Assembly (NCBI GenBank): GCA_007376265.1
Contig: VMFW01000003.1
Span: forward strand, 1,315-65,314
Direction: 5' to 3'
DNA from: Parcubacteria group bacterium Gr01-1014_20
Lineage (GTDB): Bacteria > Patescibacteriota > Minisyncoccia > UBA6257 > 2-01-FULL-56-20
DNA: 64,000 nucleotides
Shown here: piece by piece, positions 842 through 30,892 of the stretch
Layout: each line of letters starts with the position of its first letter
How positions within the stretch are numbered: position 1 is the stretch's first letter
Position numbers and translations under genes: made by a program
The notes under the pieces: model-generated
The model's input: only the letters and a program-made list of their open reading frames with translations
Databases searched by the model: none
Told to the model about the DNA's origin: nothing

Positions 842-924
842 GCCGAGGTGGTGAAATGGCAGACACGCCAGCTTTAGGAGCTGGTGCTCGCAAGGGCGTG
901 CGGGTTCAAATCCCGCCCTCGGCA
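842..924 (+). tRNA. tRNA-Leu (anticodon TAG), type II with long variable arm
   Basis: Hand-folded: acceptor GCCGAGG/CCTCGGC; D-arm GGTGAAATGGCAGAC; anticodon stem CCAGC/GCTGG with loop TTTAGGA (anticodon TAG); long variable arm; T-arm GCGGG TTCAAAT CCCGC; discriminator A. Confidence 0.85.
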
Positions 925-951
925 CAAACAGAAAAATCGCGAGTAGTTTTA

Positions 952-1000
952 AAAAACTATCCCATCCTACGATCGTAGGATGGGATAGTTTGACGATTGC
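952..1000. repeat. dif-like site 1: perfect 28-bp palindrome atcccatcctacgatcgtaggatgggat (11-bp arms + cgatcg core) inside a ~45-bp direct repeat
   Basis: Palindrome seen directly at 959-986. It is followed by agtttgacga, which repeat 2 also carries. Confidence 0.7.
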
Positions 1001-1060: not shown

Positions 1061-1654
1061 TTACGTTAGATGTTTTAAACTTCCAGTTTTGCTGATCTGG
1101 AATATCTCGACATAATTTTCGAGTTTAAGTTTAAAAATATCACTCGCTAACTCTTTCGGGATTTTTATTTTTCCTATCCAAACACTTTTTTGAATCATTT
1201 CGAGTCCCAAGTTTTTGAGAACTTCTCGAAGCCAATCCCTGGATCTTCTTTCTTTTTCCGGTATATCAAAAACCACAATGGTGAAAAAAGGTTGACTTTC
1301 TTTTTTGTAGTGCGCACTAGGGATCTTTCTGTTTTTTGAAAGAATATCCCTTAGGTTTGCAAGTTTTGCTTTCCCTTTCGGTGTGATTGCAATAACTTTT
1401 TTTCCATCCTTTTTAGCCTCAAGGATTAGTCCATCTTTTTTGAGTTTGTACAAAATATTATGATAATTTTGAGTCCTTTGTCTTTTCGTTTCTTCTATGG
1501 ATCTTTTGCGTTCATTCTGCCTTAATCGATAACCCATTTCACTATAGGAAGCTCCATAGCCAGAACTCAATATAGCGTTAAAGATATCGAAAGAGGTTTC
1601 GGCAGTTTTAAATATAAACTCGAGAATTTTGACTGTTATTTCTCCTTTTTTCAT
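1061..1654 (-). CDS. hypothetical protein: N-terminal winged-helix-like region plus C-terminal Cas2/VapD-like ferredoxin-fold domain
   Basis: 197-aa ORF. The C-terminus FFTIVVFDIPEKERRSRDWLREVLKNLGLEMIQKSVWIG follows the Cas2 beta1-alpha1-beta2 pattern (hhhYDI..RR..l...L...G.R.Q.SVF). The N-terminus ...YKLKKDGLILEAKKDGKKVIAITPKGKAKL looks like a wHTH wing. The fold assignment comes from motif reading only. Confidence 0.55.
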   Translation of the reverse strand: MKKGEITVKILEFIFKTAETSFDIFNAILSSGYGASYSEMGYRLRQNERKRSIEETKRQRTQNYHNILYKLKKDGLILEAKKDGKKVIAITPKGKAKLANLRDILSKNRKIPSAHYKKESQPFFTIVVFDIPEKERRSRDWLREVLKNLGLEMIQKSVWIGKIKIPKELASDIFKLKLENYVEIFQISKTGSLKHLT

Positions 1655-1703
1655 TACTAATATCCTATCATACGATCGTAGGATAGGATAGTTTAATGAC
1701 GAG
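1655..1703. repeat. dif-like site 2: near-palindrome atcctatcatacgatcgtaggataggat, a direct repeat of site 1
   Basis: Seen at 1662-1689 with the same cgatcg core and the same downstream agttt..gacga. It differs from site 1 at about 3 arm positions. Confidence 0.7.
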
Positions 1704-1705
1704 TG

Positions 1706-2596
1706 TTATTTTCTTCTTCTAGCGTGGAATGTTTCGTGGATTTCTTTGAGTTCACGGTTCGTGATGTGGGTATAGACTTGAGTGGTCGCGATGTTGGCGT
1801 GGCCGAGCATTTCTTGAACGGAACGAAGATCGGCGCCGTTCATAAGCAAATCGGTCGCAAACTGGTGGCGGAGTTGGTGAGGGGAGACGTGACCTAGGAT
1901 GCCAGCCTTTTTGGCGTAGTAGGTGACTAAGCGTTGAACGGCGCGAGGGATGATGCGGCCCAAGATTTTGGGATGATTGCTTTTGGTGAGGCTCACAAAA
2001 AGCGCGGGGTCGGGATCGCCGCGTTTATCGAGGTATTTTTTAATAGCGTCTTTCGCGGACTTGGAAAAGAAGACGACGCGAATTTTTTCGCCCTTGCCAC
2101 GCACTGAGATTTCGCCTCGCTCGAGGTCTAGATAGCGGTCGAGCGCGCAGAGTTCGGAGAGGCGAAGGCCGGTTGAAAAGAAAGTTTCTAAAATAGCTTT
2201 GTCGCGGAGGCCGCGGAGGTTTTTTGGGTCCGGACAGTCGAGCATCCGTTCCAAGTCTTTATACTCTAGAATCTCGATTTGCCGCCTTGAGACTTTGGGA
2301 AGCTCGATTTTGTCGGGCGAGAGGACCTTGTGATCTTTTTTAATGAGGTATTTAAGGAAATTACGGACGGCGATTACGTAGTAGCTCTGGGTGATTTTTT
2401 TGATGTCACGCCTCGCAAGATAGAGGCGGAATTCAGTAACCAGGCGGTCGGTGATTTCTTCGGGAGATTTGATTTTGGAAAAGTTCAAAAACTCCTTCAG
2501 GTAGCGCTCGTAATTCTCGCGGGTTTTGCGTGAGCGGTTCTTTTCGATTTCGAGGTAGTTTAGATAATCCTGAAGGAGGGTTTCGACTCTAGTCAT
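1706..2596 (-). CDS. tyrosine site-specific recombinase, XerC/XerD family
   Basis: 296 aa. The N-terminal core-binding region (LQDYLNYLEIEKNRSRKTRENYERYL) and the C-terminal catalytic region (HQLRHQFATDLLMNGADLRSVQEMLGHANIATTQVYTHI) carry the Xer-type R..H..R..Y signature. Confidence 0.9.
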   Translation of the reverse strand: MTRVETLLQDYLNYLEIEKNRSRKTRENYERYLKEFLNFSKIKSPEEITDRLVTEFRLYLARRDIKKITQSYYVIAVRNFLKYLIKKDHKVLSPDKIELPKVSRRQIEILEYKDLERMLDCPDPKNLRGLRDKAILETFFSTGLRLSELCALDRYLDLERGEISVRGKGEKIRVVFFSKSAKDAIKKYLDKRGDPDPALFVSLTKSNHPKILGRIIPRAVQRLVTYYAKKAGILGHVSPHQLRHQFATDLLMNGADLRSVQEMLGHANIATTQVYTHITNRELKEIHETFHARRRK

Positions 2597-3454: not shown

Positions 3455-3991
3455 GTGGCTACACAATTAATGAAACAGGGAGTAACTTACGCGAATCAGA
3501 GAGTTGGGATTTTTGTAGACGTTCAGAACCTATATCATTCCTCAAAAAACCTTTATCACGGCCGGGTGAATTATCCGGAGATGATGAAGTATTTAGTGGG
3601 CGGCAGACAGCTTATTCGAGCGATGGCTTACGTCGTCAAAAGCGAAACCGCGCAAGGCGAGGCGGCTTTTTTTGACGCGCTTGAGAAATCTGGTTTGGAG
3701 CTTCGCTCAAAGGACTTGCAGATTTACGCGGACGGTCTTAAGAAAGCGGATTGGGACGTGGGGATGGCGGTAGACGCGATTCGGATGTCGTCCTTTTTGG
3801 ATGTGGTGATTTTGGTGACCGGAGATGGAGATTTCATGCCGCTTGTTGACTATATGAAGTGGGGGGTGGGCAGGTTGGTTGAGGTGGCGGCTTTTAAACG
3901 TAGCGCTTCGGCAAAAATTCAGGAGGCGGCGGATAAGTTTACAAACCTGGAGGACATTCCGAGGATAATACTTCGAAGTACTAATCGCTAA
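3455..3991 (+). CDS. NYN/LabA-like PIN-fold nuclease domain protein
   Basis: VGIFVDVQNLYHS ... WDVGMAVDAIRMS ... DVVILVTGDGDFMPLV is the typical NYN (DUF88) motif order. The gene sits between rpsO and pnp. Confidence 0.65.
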   Translation: MATQLMKQGVTYANQRVGIFVDVQNLYHSSKNLYHGRVNYPEMMKYLVGGRQLIRAMAYVVKSETAQGEAAFFDALEKSGLELRSKDLQIYADGLKKADWDVGMAVDAIRMSSFLDVVILVTGDGDFMPLVDYMKWGVGRLVEVAAFKRSASAKIQEAADKFTNLEDIPRIILRSTNR

Positions 3992-6325: not shown

Positions 6326-6362
6326 TGTTCTGGATTCAATCGTAGCCTGCTATAATTCAATC

Positions 6363-7340
6363 ATGGCCGATTATTTTGATCAGCAAGATCGTGGGGGTGT
6401 GAATTACGTGCCGCCGCCACCTAACGACGTGAGTATTCGGACGATGGAGTCCGATATTCGCTCGATGGCGCTTTCGGGCGGAAGTTTTGTGAGACCAGAT
6501 CAAGTTCCGATGTCTCAAAAGAACCAAGAGAAAACCCAAATTCCCTCTCCTTCGTCTGATTACACTCAGGGTCCAAGCGGTAAAAAATCAAAGGGTTTTT
6601 TGCCTTTAGTGGTTTTAGTTCTGATTATGCTTTTGGGAGCGCTTGGATATTTCTTATACCCTTTGTTTACCAAAAACTCCGGAACTCCACCCGCGAGTGA
6701 CGAGGAGGTTGGTTCAACCCCAAGTTTGCCAGAGGTATCGGGGGGCGCCATTTCTCCAAAATTTAATCACGAGTCTTTTTTTAGGAAGAGCGGGGACAGC
6801 GTGATTGATATGAACATAAAGTTTGCGGCCACCGAGATTACGGATTTGGAGAACTATGACCAAAAGGTGAATCGATTATTAACTCAAGTCCAGGAGGCCG
6901 AGGCTTTAGTTGAGTTTATCGCGAGGCGCGAGGGTGGCCAGCATCTCGCGCTTTCGGAGTTTTTTGAATACAGCAGCAACCAGGTTCTTACTTCTGAATT
7001 TATGGAACAGAACTTTAATCGGGACTTTACTTTTTTTACCTATAAAAACAAAGACGGTTTTTGGCCTGGACTGGTTATTCAACTTAATAAAGGAAAAAAC
7101 TGGGTGGTGGTTAAGCCAGAAGTTTCAAAGATGGAGAGGTCGGAGGATTTGAACGACTTTTTTATAACTTCTCCGGGGGATAGGGTGGGGGACTTTAAGG
7201 ATGTTTTGATTAGTGGTCAGGCGGCCAGGATTTTAAAATACTCGAAACCATCGGCAAATTTGGCTTATGGGTGGTTTCACGATTATCTAGTGATTAGCAC
7301 TTCGGACGAAGGATTGAGGATGGCCATTGAGAGGCTATAA
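6363..7340 (+). CDS. hypothetical membrane-anchored protein
   Basis: 325-aa ORF with one TM segment (LPLVVLVLIMLLGALGYFLYPLF) and no motif I recognise. Confidence 0.5.
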   Translation: MADYFDQQDRGGVNYVPPPPNDVSIRTMESDIRSMALSGGSFVRPDQVPMSQKNQEKTQIPSPSSDYTQGPSGKKSKGFLPLVVLVLIMLLGALGYFLYPLFTKNSGTPPASDEEVGSTPSLPEVSGGAISPKFNHESFFRKSGDSVIDMNIKFAATEITDLENYDQKVNRLLTQVQEAEALVEFIARREGGQHLALSEFFEYSSNQVLTSEFMEQNFNRDFTFFTYKNKDGFWPGLVIQLNKGKNWVVVKPEVSKMERSEDLNDFFITSPGDRVGDFKDVLISGQAARILKYSKPSANLAYGWFHDYLVISTSDEGLRMAIERL

Positions 7341-28825: not shown

Positions 28826-30892
28826 ATGGCAAAAGATAAAAAAGAAGATAAAAAGTTAGAGGCAAAAGAAACGGATAACAATAAGGTGACCAAAAACTCC
28901 TATAGCGCGGAGGATATTTACGTTTTAGAGGGCCTGGAACCGGTTAGAAAGCGACCGGGAATGTATATCGGTTCGACCGGAGTGGACGGACTTCACCATC
29001 TGATCTGGGAGGTGGTGGATAATTCTATCGACGAGGCGATGGCGGGTTTTGCTAAAAATGTGACGGTTGAGCTTTTGCCCGGAAATAAGGTGAGCGTGAC
29101 TGATGACGGCAGAGGGATTCCCGTTGAAACTCACAAACAGACTAAGAAATCTGCTCTCGAGACAGTGATGACCACGCTTCACGCCGGAGGAAAGTTTGGC
29201 GGAGAATCGTATAAGGTTTCGGGTGGTTTGCACGGCGTGGGCGTGTCGGTTGTAAACGCCCTTTCGGAATGGTTGAAGGCCGAAGTTTGTCGAGAGGGGG
29301 CTTTGTATTCCCAGGAATACGAGCGAGGAGAACCGAAGGGGAAAGTGAAAAAGGTGGGGGTGTGTAAGCAGACAGGCACGAAGGTGACTTTTTCGCCAGA
29401 TCCGAAGATTTTTTTGACTTTGGAATTTAATCCTAAAAAGATTGCGGAACATTTGAGACAGCAGACTTATTTAACCAAGGGCGTGCGGGTTAATTTCTTG
29501 GATCGCCGAGAAAAAGTTCCTCAGCTTCACGGTTTTTACTTTGACGGCGGCTTGAAGTCGTTTGTGAATCATTTGATTCGCAACGAAAAATCACTTCAGG
29601 AAGAAATTTTTTATGTAAGTAAGGATCAGGAGGGAATGAACGTGGAGGTGGCGTTTACTTTTATTGATGATATGGAGGTTAAGGAGCTTAGTTTTGCCAA
29701 CAATATTTATACGCCTGACGGTGGGATGCACCTGACCGGATTTCGTTCGGCTCTGACGCGGTCTTTAAACGCGCATGCTCGAGGCGAGAGTTATCTGAAA
29801 GAAAAGGATGAGAATTTGACGAGTGATGATGTGCGGGAGGGGTTGGTGGTGGTAGTTTCAGTGAAACTTAGGGAGCCGCAGTTTGAGGGCCAGACAAAAG
29901 CAAGGCTTGGAAACCCTGAGGCGAGAACGGCGGTTGAGGCGGTCGTGAACGAATCGCTCAAGGAATTTTTAGAGAAACGACCGGCTGAAGCCAGGCGAAT
30001 TATTGAGAAGGTACTCTTGGCGGCGAAGGCGAGAAAGGCGGCGAAGGCGGCGCGGGATACGGTTTTAAGAAAAGGGGTGCTTGACGGTCTCACTCTGCCT
30101 GGCAAGCTTTCCGATTGCAGTTCGAGAAAGCCGGAAGAGTCGGAGCTATTTCTCGTTGAGGGGGATAGCGCCGGTGGGAGCGCTAAGTCGGGACGAGACA
30201 GACGCACCCAGGCGATTTTGCCACTCAAAGGAAAGATTTTGAATGTGGAGAAAACCAGACTGGATAAGATGCTTTCGAATCAAGAGATCCGGTCGCTTGT
30301 GATGGCGATTGGAACGGCAATTGCCGAGGAGTTTGATATTTCAAAAATAAGATACCACAAAGTGATTATTATGACGGACGCGGACGTGGACGGCGCTCAC
30401 ATCCGGACGCTCCTACTCACTTTGTTTTACCGGTATTTCAAAGAAGTGGTAAGTTCGGGCTATCTTTACATTGCCCAACCGCCACTCTATCGAGTTCAAA
30501 GTGGTAAGGAGGTGAGGTATGCCTATTCGGATCAGGAAAAAGAGAAAATCGTGGCTGAAATTCAGAAAAATAAAGCTATGAAATCTACCAAGAAAGAGAC
30601 TAAAGACGATAAAGAAGAGGATGGACAAGCGACCGGGGAGGCTAGCTTGGAGGTTCAAGGGGGCGGGGTGAAGGGAGTTGGAATTCAAAGGTATAAGGGG
30701 TTAGGAGAGATGAATCCGGAGCAACTTTGGGAAACAACTATGAATCCGGAGAATCGAACTTTACGGCAGGTGGAAATTGATGACGCCGAAGAGGCCGATC
30801 GTCTTTTTGATATTTTGATGGGAGATGAGGTTCAGCCGCGGCGTAAGTTTATCGAGCTTCACGCGCTCTCGGTTAAGAATCTTGACGTTTAA
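28826..30892 (+). CDS. gyrB: type IIA topoisomerase ATPase subunit B (GyrB/ParE family)
   Basis: GHKL ATPase (GLHHLIWEVVDNSIDEAMAG), TOPRIM (ELFLVEGDSAGGSAK), C-terminal tail (QRYKGLGEMNPEQLWETTMNP); 688 aa. A GyrB versus ParE call is not possible from sequence alone. Confidence 0.85.
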   Translation: MAKDKKEDKKLEAKETDNNKVTKNSYSAEDIYVLEGLEPVRKRPGMYIGSTGVDGLHHLIWEVVDNSIDEAMAGFAKNVTVELLPGNKVSVTDDGRGIPVETHKQTKKSALETVMTTLHAGGKFGGESYKVSGGLHGVGVSVVNALSEWLKAEVCREGALYSQEYERGEPKGKVKKVGVCKQTGTKVTFSPDPKIFLTLEFNPKKIAEHLRQQTYLTKGVRVNFLDRREKVPQLHGFYFDGGLKSFVNHLIRNEKSLQEEIFYVSKDQEGMNVEVAFTFIDDMEVKELSFANNIYTPDGGMHLTGFRSALTRSLNAHARGESYLKEKDENLTSDDVREGLVVVVSVKLREPQFEGQTKARLGNPEARTAVEAVVNESLKEFLEKRPAEARRIIEKVLLAAKARKAAKAARDTVLRKGVLDGLTLPGKLSDCSSRKPEESELFLVEGDSAGGSAKSGRDRRTQAILPLKGKILNVEKTRLDKMLSNQEIRSLVMAIGTAIAEEFDISKIRYHKVIIMTDADVDGAHIRTLLLTLFYRYFKEVVSSGYLYIAQPPLYRVQSGKEVRYAYSDQEKEKIVAEIQKNKAMKSTKKETKDDKEEDGQATGEASLEVQGGGVKGVGIQRYKGLGEMNPEQLWETTMNPENRTLRQVEIDDAEEADRLFDILMGDEVQPRRKFIELHALSVKNLDV

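What the first reader, a model, noticed from the sequence alone, without database searches (positions are those of the whole stretch)
1061..1654. Cargo of the dif-like cassette is a wHTH + Cas2/VapD-like fold protein with no CRISPR context
Seen: the C-terminal stretch FFTIVVFDIPEKERRSRDWLREVLKNLGLEMIQKSVWIG follows the Cas2 beta-alpha-beta signature (hydrophobic strand ending YDI/FDI, an Arg-rich helix, G..Q.SVF/W strand), preceded by a winged-helix-like N-terminus. No CRISPR repeats or other cas genes occur in the 64 kb. Inference: a standalone Cas2-like nuclease or DNA-binding module carried on a Xer-mobilised cassette. It may be a toxin, a regulator, or a factor involved in the cassette's own mobility.
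Basis: inference. Interest (0 to 1): 0.55.

Follow-up and report, generated by a model that had tools for sequence, protein, structure and literature searches.

The report
Palindrome-bracketed mini-PaaX DNA-binding gene
The gene encodes a small DNA-binding protein with a winged helix and a Cas2-type fold, from an uncultured Parcubacteria bacterium; it appears to recognise a long palindrome on each side of its own gene, has nothing to do with CRISPR, and shows no sign of being moved by the neighbouring Xer recombinase.

Summary
ORF 1061-1654 (-) encodes a 197-aa protein with an N-terminal winged helix and a C-terminal Cas2-fold domain (Pfam PaaX_M 1.2e-14; best structural match E. coli PaaX, then Cas2 proteins). 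The 64 kb holds no CRISPR array and no other cas gene.

The "dif/Xer cassette" reading is not supported.
- The two 34-38-bp palindromes (954-991 and 1661-1694) travel with this gene family, not with xer.
- 63 of 81 family loci carry such a palindrome next to the gene, and 37 have one on both sides. Only 18 of 80 have xer within 5 kb.
- 21 Xer loci have xer abutting tRNA-Leu with neither gene nor palindrome.
- The arms are cassette-specific (83% identity within a cassette, 35% between). Only the centre ACGATCGT is shared.

Evidence that the protein binds these palindromes:
- Recognition-helix residues 62/65/66/70 co-vary with arm positions -16 to -11.
- Residues 136/137/140 of the Cas2-like helix co-vary with positions -6 to -4.
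- Promoter -10 boxes sit just downstream of the upstream palindromes.

Best reading: a truncated PaaX-type dimeric DNA-binding protein with operators that bracket its own gene. The unit is gained, lost, inverted and replaced as a block. Its biological role is unknown, and nuclease activity is not excluded because the Cas2 catalytic Asp is invariant.

The parts
1061..1654 (-). Gene for a 197-aa 'mini-PaaX' protein, made of a winged helix-turn-helix and a Cas2-fold (PaaX_M) domain. It lacks the PaaX C-terminal helical domain.
   Evidence: ORF; Pfam and NCBIfam hits; 100% identical to a hypothetical protein of Parcubacteria group bacterium Gr01-1014_20; AF2 model and fold search.
1379..1546 (-). 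Codons for residues 37-92: the helix-turn-helix and its beta-hairpin wing. The recognition helix is about residues 58-74. Residues 62, 65, 66 and 70 co-vary with the outer arm of the palindrome.
   Evidence: Secondary structure of the model; profile hits to SSV1 F-93 and MarR winged helices; covariation.
1064..1300 (-). Codons for residues 119-197: the Cas2-fold domain, by analogy with PaaX the dimerisation domain. D130, P132, E133, R139, W141, R143, S157, G161 and K162 are invariant. Helix residues 136, 137 and 140 co-vary with palindrome positions -6 to -4.
   Evidence: D130 aligns with SSO1404 D10; covariation.
1661..1694 (.). Upstream palindrome: 34 nt, one arm mismatch, centre ACGATCGT. 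It lies between the xer stop codon (1706) and the ATG (1654) and is the proposed operator. Its gene-proximal arm reads TATGAT (-10-like) and contains AGGA 10-13 nt before the ATG.
   Evidence: Across the family, -10 boxes are enriched just downstream of the upstream palindromes.
954..991 (.). Downstream palindrome: a perfect 19+19, centre ACGATCGT, 87% identical to the upstream copy. It is the proposed second binding site. On the sense (minus) strand it folds as a 17-bp hairpin followed by U6 (complement of 951-956), so it can also serve as the gene's terminator.
   Evidence: -28 kcal/mol, z = -8.1.
842..925 (+). tRNA-Leu(tag). This is context, marking one boundary of the roughly 780-bp insertion. 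It is not part of the unit.
   Evidence: In 21 Xer loci this tRNA lies 3-170 nt from the xer stop with nothing between them.
1706..2596 (-). Xer-type tyrosine recombinase gene (296 aa). This is context, marking the other boundary of the insertion. It is conserved whether or not the cassette is present.
   Evidence: XerC/XerD/XerA-type hits.

Best explanation
The gene encodes a truncated PaaX-type, dimeric, sequence-specific DNA-binding protein. Its cognate site is the 32-50-bp palindrome that brackets the gene.

Proposed mechanism (inferred unless marked otherwise):
- The Cas2-fold domain dimerises, as the same domain does in PaaX, and sits over the dyad.
- There its Arg-rich helix (residues 133-149) contacts the family-wide conserved centre ACGATCGT and the adjacent positions -4 to -6.
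- The two winged helices reach outwards, and their recognition helices (residues 58-74) read the cassette-specific outer arms (-11 to -16).
- The upstream copy overlaps or abuts the gene's promoter and would give autorepression.
- The downstream copy is a second binding site. In this window it is also a hairpin plus U6 terminator.

Gene plus sites behave as one evolutionary unit. The unit is present or absent between xer and tRNA-Leu. It occurs in either orientation. It exists as several paralogues per genome, each with a different arm sequence. At a given locus it is replaced by deeply diverged alleles.

It is not a CRISPR component, and it does not depend on the adjacent Xer gene.

Shown: the fold, the site architecture, the presence/absence pattern, the covariation and the promoter placement. 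Inferred: actual binding, repression, and the role of the second site. The biological role is not known; I suspect a specificity or addiction-like conflict module.
For: - Fold and homology: PaaX_M and Cas2 profile hits; PaaX 8a39 is the best structural match. PaaX is an autorepressor with a winged helix and a middle dimerisation domain, and its long palindromic operator is TGATTC-N27-GAATCA (PMC9493321).
- Site architecture: the palindromes have their centre within about 20-190 nt of the start or stop codon (median roughly 50 nt). With at least 14 of 16 arm pairs (null rate 1.2% per 280 nt), they occur on both sides in 37 of 81 loci and on at least one side in 63 of 81.
- Specificity: arms are 83% identical within a cassette and 35% identical between cassettes. 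The centre is ACGATCGT in 60 of 105 palindromes; position -3 is C in 95% of half-sites and -2 is G in 95%.
- Covariation: in 68 sequences below 70% identity, residue 66 pairs with -13 and -14 (z 8.1 and 6.9) and residue 140 with -5 (z 6.6). All three exceed the permutation maxima. Residues 62, 65 and 70 pair with -16 and -12; residues 136 and 137 pair with -4 and -6.
- Chemically sensible pairings: N66 with A, D66 with C, S66 with G ('TGTCC'), R136 with A(-4) and K136 with G(-4).
- Parallel conservation: the C-terminal domain and the DNA centre are both conserved, while the winged helix and the arms both vary.
- Promoter placement: a perfect TATAAT lies 8-50 nt gene-ward of the upstream palindrome centre in 14 of 47 loci, against 2-3 in each of three control directions.
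- DNA-level rather than RNA-level selection: mismatches show no G:U bias (50 against 56 A:C, with 104 other).
- Behaviour as a unit: empty sites, inverted cassettes between the same flanks, and DNA identity that drops only between the palindromes. Synonymous sites are saturated in the cassette gene (pS 0.78) where the adjacent xer has pS 0.44.
Against: - No binding experiment exists.
- The covariation controls do not remove shared ancestry. The permutation null breaks phylogeny, and the gene and its sites are co-inherited.
- 18 of 81 loci show no palindrome at my threshold, and 15 have only the downstream copy, where no promoter can be repressed. Autoregulation therefore cannot be the whole story.
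- In this window only 6 nt separate the upstream palindrome from the ATG, and no canonical promoter was found. The gene may be co-transcribed with xer.
- A regulator whose only detectable sites flank its own gene has no obvious target. The window has 2 sites in 64 kb.
- The invariant D130/E133 at the Cas2 catalytic position is not needed by a pure dimerisation domain.
Confidence: 0.6

Rival explanations
1. A self-contained selfish cassette. The protein is a site-specific nuclease or strand-transferase, with the winged helix targeting it and the Cas2-fold dimer providing a metal site over the dyad. It cuts at the palindrome centres that bound its own gene and so promotes excision, inversion or replacement of the cassette. 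Alternatively it acts as a single-chain toxin/antitoxin-like addiction module.
For: - D130 at the position of the Cas2 catalytic Asp is invariant, as are P132 and E133.
- The unit is bounded on both sides by the same site.
- The unit shows a presence/absence polymorphism with clean empty sites lacking any palindrome.
- Both orientations occur between identical flanks.
- Several paralogues per genome have orthogonal sites.
- Allelic divergence is ancient inside young flanks.
- There is no conserved partner or target gene: 95 of 146 neighbour genes are singletons, and the downstream neighbour is co-directional in 36 loci and convergent in 36.
Against: - Identical proteins always sit in the same context, in 24 contigs each for two populations.
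- No orientation or occupancy polymorphism is seen within a population.
- No target-site duplication and no similarity beyond the palindromes.
- Nearly half of the loci lack one of the two sites.
- No nuclease role is reported for this domain in PaaX, where the review read here calls it a dimerisation motif (PMC9493321).
- The family is absent from IMG/VR viral contigs.
Confidence: 0.17
2. One reading: the palindromes are dif-like sites, and the cassette is inserted or excised by the adjacent Xer recombinase, as in an IMEX or pdif module.
For: - In 18 of 80 family loci, and in 18 of 80 Xer loci, the cassette lies directly downstream of xer.
- A 13+6+13 layout with a 6-bp centre resembles the geometry of a tyrosine-recombinase core site.
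- Inverted cassettes exist.
Against: - 62 of 80 cassettes have no xer nearby.
- There is a second conserved location downstream of gyrB.
- The 21 xer/tRNA-Leu junctions without the gene have no palindrome, so the chromosome has no resident dif-like partner site there.
- The arms are cassette-specific even within one contig, while the Xer proteins are 62-93% identical.
- Two identical perfect palindromes cannot arise by crossover between an element site and a different chromosomal site.
- The arms co-vary with the cassette's own protein.
- Other genes of all kinds fill the same spacer in other lineages.
Confidence: 0.06
3. The palindromes are mainly RNA-level elements: intrinsic terminators or insulating hairpins on either side of a small regulator gene. 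The protein's real targets lie elsewhere.
For: - The window's downstream copy is a -28 kcal/mol hairpin followed by U6 on the sense strand.
- Some loci have AAAA-stem-TTTT forms.
- The upstream neighbour gene is co-directional in 50 of 74 loci, so the upstream copy could terminate it.
- Solo palindromes occur in other intergenic regions.
Against: - Terminators need neither a conserved ACGATCGT centre nor identical sequence on both sides of a gene.
- Most palindromes are TTTAC...GTAAA, that is T-run before and A-run after the stem, which is the wrong polarity on both strands.
- There is no G:U bias among mismatches.
- The arms co-vary with protein residues.
Confidence: 0.1
4. An orphan but genuine CRISPR Cas2, as NCBI annotates many family members, serving an array elsewhere in the genome.
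For: - TIGR01573, PF09827 and PADLOC Cas2 models are matched above their cut-offs.
- Many homologues are named 'CRISPR-associated endonuclease Cas2'.
Against: - The matches cover only about 40 residues of a 197-aa two-domain protein. PaaX_M scores far better.
- There is no array and no other cas gene in the 64 kb.
- No arrays were found in the 100 family loci, and no cas1 appears among the called neighbours.
- The family has 688 clusters at 50% identity, all about 195 aa and all with the same architecture.
Confidence: 0.02

Closest known systems
PaaX, the repressor of phenylacetate catabolism (E. coli W, PDB 8a39; Pfam PF07848 + PF20803 + PF08223)
   Same: It has an N-terminal winged helix followed by the Cas2-like middle domain (PF20803), and it is the best structural match. 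PaaX is a dimeric autorepressor that binds a long palindrome with half-sites about three helical turns apart, TGATTC-N27-GAATCA (PMC9493321). That is the same overall span as the 32-40-bp palindromes here.
   Different: The protein here has no C-terminal helical (inducer-binding) domain. There are no paa genes nearby. The PaaX N-terminal Pfam model is not matched, and TIGR02277 scores 13.6 against a cutoff of 264. The operators sit on both sides of the gene and have a conserved centre that appears to be read by the Cas2-like domain. The family is confined to Patescibacteria and turns over rapidly.
Cas2 (CRISPR adaptation; for example SSO1404 2ivy, SSO8090 3exc)
   Same: It has the same ferredoxin-like fold and motifs: a hydrophobic strand ending in (F/Y)D(I/V), an Arg-rich helix, and Q.SV(F/W). 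D130 aligns with the catalytic Asp.
   Different: Here the domain is fused to a winged helix. There is no cas1 and no array. The sequence is closer to PaaX_M than to Cas2.
Type II toxin-antitoxin modules, including VapD/VapX (VapD is the Cas2-fold toxin)
   Same: Both are small, self-contained, autoregulated through a promoter palindrome, patchy in distribution, multi-paralogue with insulated specificities, and exchanged horizontally without transposition machinery of their own. VapD shares the Cas2 fold (the VapD points are from my own knowledge).
   Different: This is a single gene with no partner. No VapD family hit was found. The second site downstream of the gene is not a toxin-antitoxin feature. 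Toxicity has not been tested.
Xer-dependent elements (IMEX; Acinetobacter pdif modules)
   Same: A short one-gene unit bounded by two similar palindromic sites, here lying next to a xer gene.
   Different: The sites are not conserved between units, are absent from empty loci, are mostly far from xer, and track the cassette's own protein.
IS200/IS605 and REP/RAYT
   Same: A unit of about 0.7 kb in which one small gene is flanked by similar hairpin-forming palindromes that its own product would recognise.
   Different: There is no HUH or catalytic Tyr motif; the invariant residues include no His pair. Identical copies are never seen in different contexts. Palindromes are not dispersed in the 64 kb.

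Membership tests
Cas2 (CRISPR adaptation protein) | Cas2 ferredoxin-like fold with the catalytic Asp at the end of strand 1 | tested here: met
   PF09827 and TIGR01573 are matched above their cut-offs over residues 124-164. Foldseek hits many Cas2 chains. D130 aligns with SSO1404 D10 and is invariant.
Cas2 (CRISPR adaptation protein) | Stand-alone protein of about 90-110 aa encoded next to cas1 and a CRISPR array | tested here: not met
   The protein is a 197-aa two-domain protein. There is no array and no other Cas hit among the 61 window ORFs. No arrays were found in the 100 family loci, and no cas1 among the called neighbours.
PaaX family (phenylacetyl-CoA-responsive repressor) | Central Cas2-like domain PF20803 | tested here: met
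   E 1.2e-14, 54.6 bits against a cutoff of 24, residues 125-190. PaaX 8a39 is the top fold hit.
PaaX family (phenylacetyl-CoA-responsive repressor) | PaaX-type N-terminal winged helix (PF07848) and C-terminal helical effector domain (PF08223); full-length equivalog TIGR02277 | tested here: not met
   Neither Pfam model is matched at E<=1. The protein ends at residue 197, straight after the Cas2-like domain. TIGR02277 scores 13.6 bits against a cutoff of 264.55.
PaaX family (phenylacetyl-CoA-responsive repressor) | Linked to paa catabolic genes | tested here: not met
   The neighbours are xer, tRNA-Leu, rpsO and pnp in the window. Elsewhere they are xer, gyrB, thrS or unrelated genes.
Xer/dif modules (IMEX, pdif) | Flanking sites are copies of a conserved Xer-binding site that also exists without cargo | tested here: not met
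   The arms are 35% identical between cassettes. 21 tight xer/tRNA-Leu junctions, and 15 with other inserts, carry no such palindrome.
Xer/dif modules (IMEX, pdif) | Recombination by Xer at the borders of the central region | not testable with these tools
   This needs biochemistry or read-level junction data. Only the geometry (13+6+13) is compatible.
IS200/IS605 or REP-RAYT | HUH/Y1 transposase, and multiple identical copies in different contexts | tested here: not met
   No transposase family hit. No invariant His-x-His or Tyr in the catalytic domain. Identical proteins are always in one context.
VapD-type toxin (Cas2-fold) of a toxin-antitoxin pair | VapD family sequence match and an adjacent small antitoxin gene | tested here: not met
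   No VapD model appears among the Pfam or NCBIfam hits at E<=1. There is no conserved partner ORF inside the unit, since the palindromes lie close to the ORF ends (palindrome centre a median of about 50 nt from the start or stop codon).
Integron gene cassette | One imperfect attC hairpin per cassette, an array next to intI with its extra domain, and attI | tested here: not met
   The palindromes are perfect and sit on both sides of the gene. The recombinase is of Xer length (296 aa). TIGR02249 scores 115.8 against a cutoff of 265. Ordinary genes fill the same spacer elsewhere.

The most novel reading that the evidence does not exclude
The unit may be a previously unrecognised kind of minimal selfish or 'specificity' cassette. 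In it a Cas2-fold domain does two things not known for that fold. It reads bases next to a palindrome dyad, and it uses the conserved Cas2 Asp/Glu site to nick or cut there. The gene and its two cognate sites could then excise, invert or replace one another between genomes of ultrasmall Patescibacteria. That would give a free-living relative of Cas2 with its own DNA substrate, which bears on where the CRISPR adaptation module came from.
Probability: 0.12. Interest if true: 0.85.

Novelty: new variant of a known kind. Interest (0 to 1): 0.55.

Why it matters
1. Annotation. A family of about 700 clusters at 50% identity in Patescibacteria is widely labelled 'CRISPR-associated endonuclease Cas2'. 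It has no CRISPR context, and this inflates counts of cas genes in a group known to be nearly devoid of CRISPR.

2. Biology. These reduced genomes encode few regulators. A multi-paralogue family of DNA-binding proteins, each apparently with its own long palindrome, is a tractable entry point into their gene control or genome conflicts.

3. Mechanism. The covariation gives a concrete, testable recognition code: residue 66 with arm positions -13/-14, and residues 136/140 with -4/-5. It also suggests that a Cas2-fold domain takes part in base-specific DNA recognition.

4. Evolution. The cassette is an island of saturated divergence bounded by the palindromes inside well-conserved flanks. That points to allele replacement or long-lived polymorphism, as seen for immunity and addiction systems.

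Tried and rejected
- Xer/dif idea: tested by fetching 80 Xer loci and scoring the cassette, palindromes and tRNA in each. Rejected.
- tRNA-targeting integrative element: only tRNA-Leu(tag) in the Xer-linked clade, plus four other tRNAs, lie within 400 nt. Most loci have none. Rejected.
- Recent transposition: look-ups of two abundant identical proteins returned a single context each. No support.
- Target-site duplications or extended terminal repeats: similarity stops at the palindrome edges.
- RNA-hairpin selection: no G:U bias.
- Integron-like platform: the xer/tRNA-Leu spacer holds ordinary membrane-protein and enzyme genes in other lineages.
- Viral origin: no relatives in IMG/VR.
- GIY-YIG guess for the LexA-type neighbour in L006 and L012: not confirmed by Pfam.
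- Literature: searches for PaaX+Cas2, Cas2+Parcubacteria, Cas2-like+winged helix and PaaX-like found no description of this family.
- A strict 16/16 palindrome threshold was abandoned because terminators inflate the null. A threshold of 14/16 was used instead.
Full report
**1. Observation**

Sequence profiles:
- Residues 125-190 match Pfam PF20803, 'PaaX protein central Cas2-like domain' (E 1.2e-14).
- Residues 124-164 match PF09827 CRISPR_Cas2 and NCBIfam TIGR01573, both just above their curated cut-offs.
- The N-terminal half gives only sub-threshold PadR/winged-helix hits.

Structure:
- An AlphaFold2 model built on 30 homologues has mean pLDDT 78, and 88-93 over the C-terminal domain. It shows helices, a beta-hairpin wing (77-90) and then a beta-alpha-beta-beta-alpha-beta domain.
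- Foldseek against the PDB ranks E. coli PaaX (8a39, probability 1.00) first. About thirty Cas2 chains follow, then the PaaX-like structures 3kfw and 3l09.
- A family profile hits the winged-helix proteins SSV1 F-93 and MarR with its N-terminal half and Cas2 SSO8090 with its C-terminal half.
- In a profile of the C-terminal domain alone, D130 aligns with D10 of SSO1404. From my own knowledge, D10 is the catalytic Asp of that Cas2.

CRISPR context:
- The window has no CRISPR array and only four tRNAs by Rfam.
- Among its 61 ORFs, PADLOC Cas models are matched by this protein alone.

So the fold call and the 'no CRISPR context' statement are both confirmed.

**2. The family**

The protein is 100% identical to a hypothetical protein of 'Parcubacteria group bacterium Gr01-1014_20'.

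- An exhaustive profile search finds 688 clusters at 50% identity with E<=1e-30. Among the best 150 hits listed, nearly all are 174-235 aa long and are matched over almost their full length.
- All named sources are Patescibacteria: Wolfe-, Lipton-, Nomura-, Ryan-, Colwell-, Portnoy- and Harrisonbacteria, and Paceibacterota.
- Sources name them 'CRISPR-associated endonuclease Cas2' (NCBI) or 'PaaX' (JGI).
- Several genomes have two or three copies. One 52-kb contig carries three.
- No relatives occur in IMG/VR viral contigs.
- The invariant residues are concentrated in the C-terminal domain: D130, P132, E133, R139, W141, R143, S157, G161 and K162. There is also a near-invariant GYGAS loop at 32-36.

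**3. The palindromes belong to the gene**

In the window, a perfect 19+19 palindrome lies at 954-991 and a copy 87% identical lies at 1661-1694. They bracket the ORF and occur nowhere else in 64 kb.

The same architecture recurs in the 80 genome loci that encode relatives. A 32-52-bp palindrome has its centre about 20-190 nt (median roughly 50 nt) from the start codon, the stop codon, or both.

Counts, requiring at least 14 of 16 arm pairs (seen in 1.2% of control 280-nt windows):

| Palindrome position | Loci (of 81) |
|---|---|
| Both sides | 37 |
| Upstream only | 11 |
| Downstream only | 15 |
| None | 18 |

- The centre is ACGATCGT in 60 of 105 palindromes. Variants are CGGTCG, CGGCCG and GCGATCGC. 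In the half-sites, position -3 is C in 95% and -2 is G in 95%.
- The arms follow only a loose consensus, (T)ACTATCC...
- The two copies around one gene share 83% of arm positions, against 35% between cassettes. This holds for paralogues in one genome and on one contig.
- Similarity between the two copies stops at the palindrome edges. There are no target-site duplications.

**4. Test of the Xer/dif idea**

I fetched 80 loci encoding relatives of the window's Xer protein, at 62-93% identity.

- 18 carry the gene between the xer stop codon and the 3' end of a convergent tRNA-Leu(tag), always with palindromes centred on the conserved CGATCG.
- 21 have the tRNA only 3-170 nt from the xer stop, with neither the gene nor any such palindrome. 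These include L082 and L083, which after L081 are the closest Xer relatives of the window (78% and 76%).
- 15 have unrelated genes in that spacer, again without the palindrome.

Conversely, only 18 of 80 family loci have xer within about 5 kb. A second recurrent location is directly downstream of gyrB (9 loci). Most other neighbours are unique: 95 of the 146 neighbour genes examined have no relative among the others.

In two lineages (L004/L126-131, and L072) the cassette lies inverted between the same xer and tRNA flanks.

So the palindromes are not a resident dif site next to xer. A single conserved Xer protein could not read such varied arms. Crossover between an element site and a different chromosomal site would not leave two identical perfect palindromes.

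**5. Evidence that the protein reads its own palindromes**

For 77 distinct proteins I paired the aligned protein with the consensus half-site of its flanking palindromes. I then computed APC-corrected mutual information.

| Protein residue(s) | Structural element | DNA position(s) |
|---|---|---|
| 66 | helix before the wing (recognition helix of a winged helix) | -13, -14 |
| 62, 65 | same helix | -16 |
| 70 | same helix | -12, -11 |
| 140 | Arg-rich helix of the Cas2-like domain | -5, -6 |
| 136 | same helix | -4 |
| 137 | same helix | -6 |

- Residues 62, 65, 66 and 70 have i, i+3, i+4, i+8 spacing, which puts them on one helical face.
- After thinning to 68 sequences below 70% identity, the first three pairs have z = 8.1, 6.9 and 6.6. 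They exceed the 95th percentile of permutation maxima.
- The region-by-region means show the expected diagonal: recognition helix with outer arm, Cas2 helix with inner positions.
- The contingency tables make chemical sense. N66 goes with A(-14) ('CTAT'). D66 goes with C ('CTCG'). S66 goes with G ('TGTCC'). R136 goes with A(-4) in 50 of 53 cases, and K136 with G(-4) in 9 of 16.
- Some switches occur between genomes whose Xer proteins are 88-92% identical.

Caveat: the gene and its sites are co-inherited, and my null does not preserve phylogeny. This is strong circumstantial evidence, not proof.

Two further points fit the model:
- The conserved half of the protein goes with the conserved centre of the DNA, and the variable half goes with the variable arms.
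- E. coli PaaX is a dimeric autorepressor. Its operator, TGATTC-N27-GAATCA, spans 39 bp, and its middle domain is described as the dimerisation motif (PMC9493321).

**6. Regulatory placement**

- A perfect TATAAT lies 8-50 nt gene-ward of the upstream palindrome centre in 14 of 47 loci. The three control directions give 2-3 each. The upstream site therefore overlaps or abuts the -35/spacer region, as expected for an autorepressor operator.
- In the window itself only 6 nt separate the palindrome from the ATG. Its gene-proximal arm reads TATGAT and AGGA. No canonical promoter was found, so co-transcription with xer is possible.
- The window's downstream copy folds on the sense strand as a 17-bp hairpin followed by U6 (-28 kcal/mol) and can serve as a terminator.
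- Most family palindromes have T-runs before and A-runs after the stem, which is the wrong polarity for terminators.
- Mismatches show no G:U bias: 50 G:T, 56 A:C and 104 other. Selection therefore acts on the duplex, not on an RNA hairpin.

**7. Evolutionary behaviour**

- Against L001 (Xer 93% identical), DNA identity is 85-100% on both flanks but 50-78% between the palindromes.
- Across 34 Xer-adjacent pairs, the two proteins co-diverge (Spearman 0.78). The relation is far from proportional: at 90-93% Xer identity the cassette protein is only 54-66% identical.
- Synonymous differences are saturated in the cassette gene (pS 0.76-0.78) where the adjacent xer has pS 0.44-0.47. The cassette alleles are therefore much older than their flanks. 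This implies replacement by a diverged allele or long-lived polymorphism, not just fast protein evolution.
- Identical proteins from abundant populations always sit in the same context, in 24 contigs each. Orientation is uniform within populations. So there is no sign of ongoing transposition or phase-variable inversion.

**8. Interpretation**

The best-supported mechanism is a truncated PaaX-type dimer. It binds the long palindrome flanking its gene, with the Cas2-fold domain on the dyad and the winged helices on the arms. The upstream site acts as operator and the downstream site as a second binding site and, at least here, a terminator.

Several observations remain unexplained:
- Why a downstream site exists at all; it is the only site in 15 loci.
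- What the protein controls besides itself. Solo palindromes with cassette-like arms occur 1-4 kb away in L006 (upstream of rplJ), L012 and L058.
- Why the Cas2 catalytic Asp and E133 are invariant.
- Why the alleles are so old.

These features, together with the multi-paralogue, patchy, self-contained nature of the unit, are typical of addiction, immunity or other conflict systems. They keep alive a rival in which the protein cuts or nicks at the palindrome centre.

**9. Comparison and novelty**

The domain architecture is a known kind: Pfam's PaaX Cas2-like domain fused to a winged helix. The protein fails membership of PaaX proper. It has no C-terminal effector domain, no paa genes nearby, and an equivalog score far below cutoff. 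It also fails membership of Cas2 proper, being a two-domain protein with no cas1 and no array.

The following features were not found in the literature I could search:
- operators that bracket the protein's own gene;
- a Cas2-fold domain apparently involved in base recognition;
- the cassette-like turnover.

I rate the finding a new variant of a known kind, of moderate interest.

Noticed in passing
L006:5709-6212 (-) and L012:3799-4251 (-): Next to the family gene, the interval between the downstream palindrome and a third palindrome with the same arms holds a 150-167-aa gene. It has a LexA-type winged helix and an unassigned C-terminal half. So the same sites can delimit a second one-gene unit.
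   Followed up: partly
L006:768-807 and 6332-6377; L012:4462-4503; L058:9101-9142; L013:399-436; L049:2175-2212; L004:3895-3934: These are 'solo' long palindromes of the same type (most centred on CGATCG; L058 on TGATCA, L049 on CGGTCG and L004 on GCTATAGC), away from any family gene. The L006, L012 and L058 copies share arms with the local cassette, and the L006 copy lies about 125 nt upstream of rplJ. They could be further binding sites or remnants.
   Followed up: partly
window 842-925 and 1706-2596; loci L081-L160: A convergent xer / tRNA-Leu(tag) pair is conserved across many Parcubacteria. The spacer between them is a variable spot, holding nothing, this cassette, or 0.3-2.8 kb of unrelated genes.
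   Followed up: yes
L025, L028-L030, L032, L037, L048, L050, L074: This clade of the family sits directly downstream of gyrB (59-91 nt in most of these loci), in six of them with thrS convergent downstream. Its palindromes are shorter, with a CGGCCG centre, and are mostly upstream only. The window's own gyrB (28826-30892) is followed by nusG and has no such gene.
   Followed up: partly
L031:917-1232: Six closely spaced palindromes built on GTGTTTCACGTGAAACAC lie within about 300 nt. They look like an array of binding sites for some other factor. A similar TCACGTGA-centred 23-pair palindrome occurs in L140.
   Followed up: no
protein database entries P0008, P0013, P0029, P0037, P0051, P0078, P0079, P0090, P0101, P0105, P0107: Many members of this family are named 'CRISPR-associated endonuclease Cas2' by NCBI, because TIGR01573 is passed over about 40 residues. 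This is probably a systematic mis-annotation in Patescibacteria.
   Followed up: yes
window 3455-3991 (+): A 178-aa NYN/LabA-like nuclease-family protein (PADLOC NYN model, 2.4e-12) lies between rpsO and pnp. Assigning that hit to this ORF is my inference from its sequence. Other PADLOC hits in the window (ShosA, SspH, DpdF and others) look like housekeeping homologues.
   Followed up: no
window 1661-1694 compared with 954-991: The single arm mismatch in the upstream copy turns TAGGAT into TATGAT, a better -10 hexamer, on the gene-proximal side. The arm consensus TAGGATAG also supplies an AGGA Shine-Dalgarno-like motif 10-13 nt before the ATG.
   Followed up: partly
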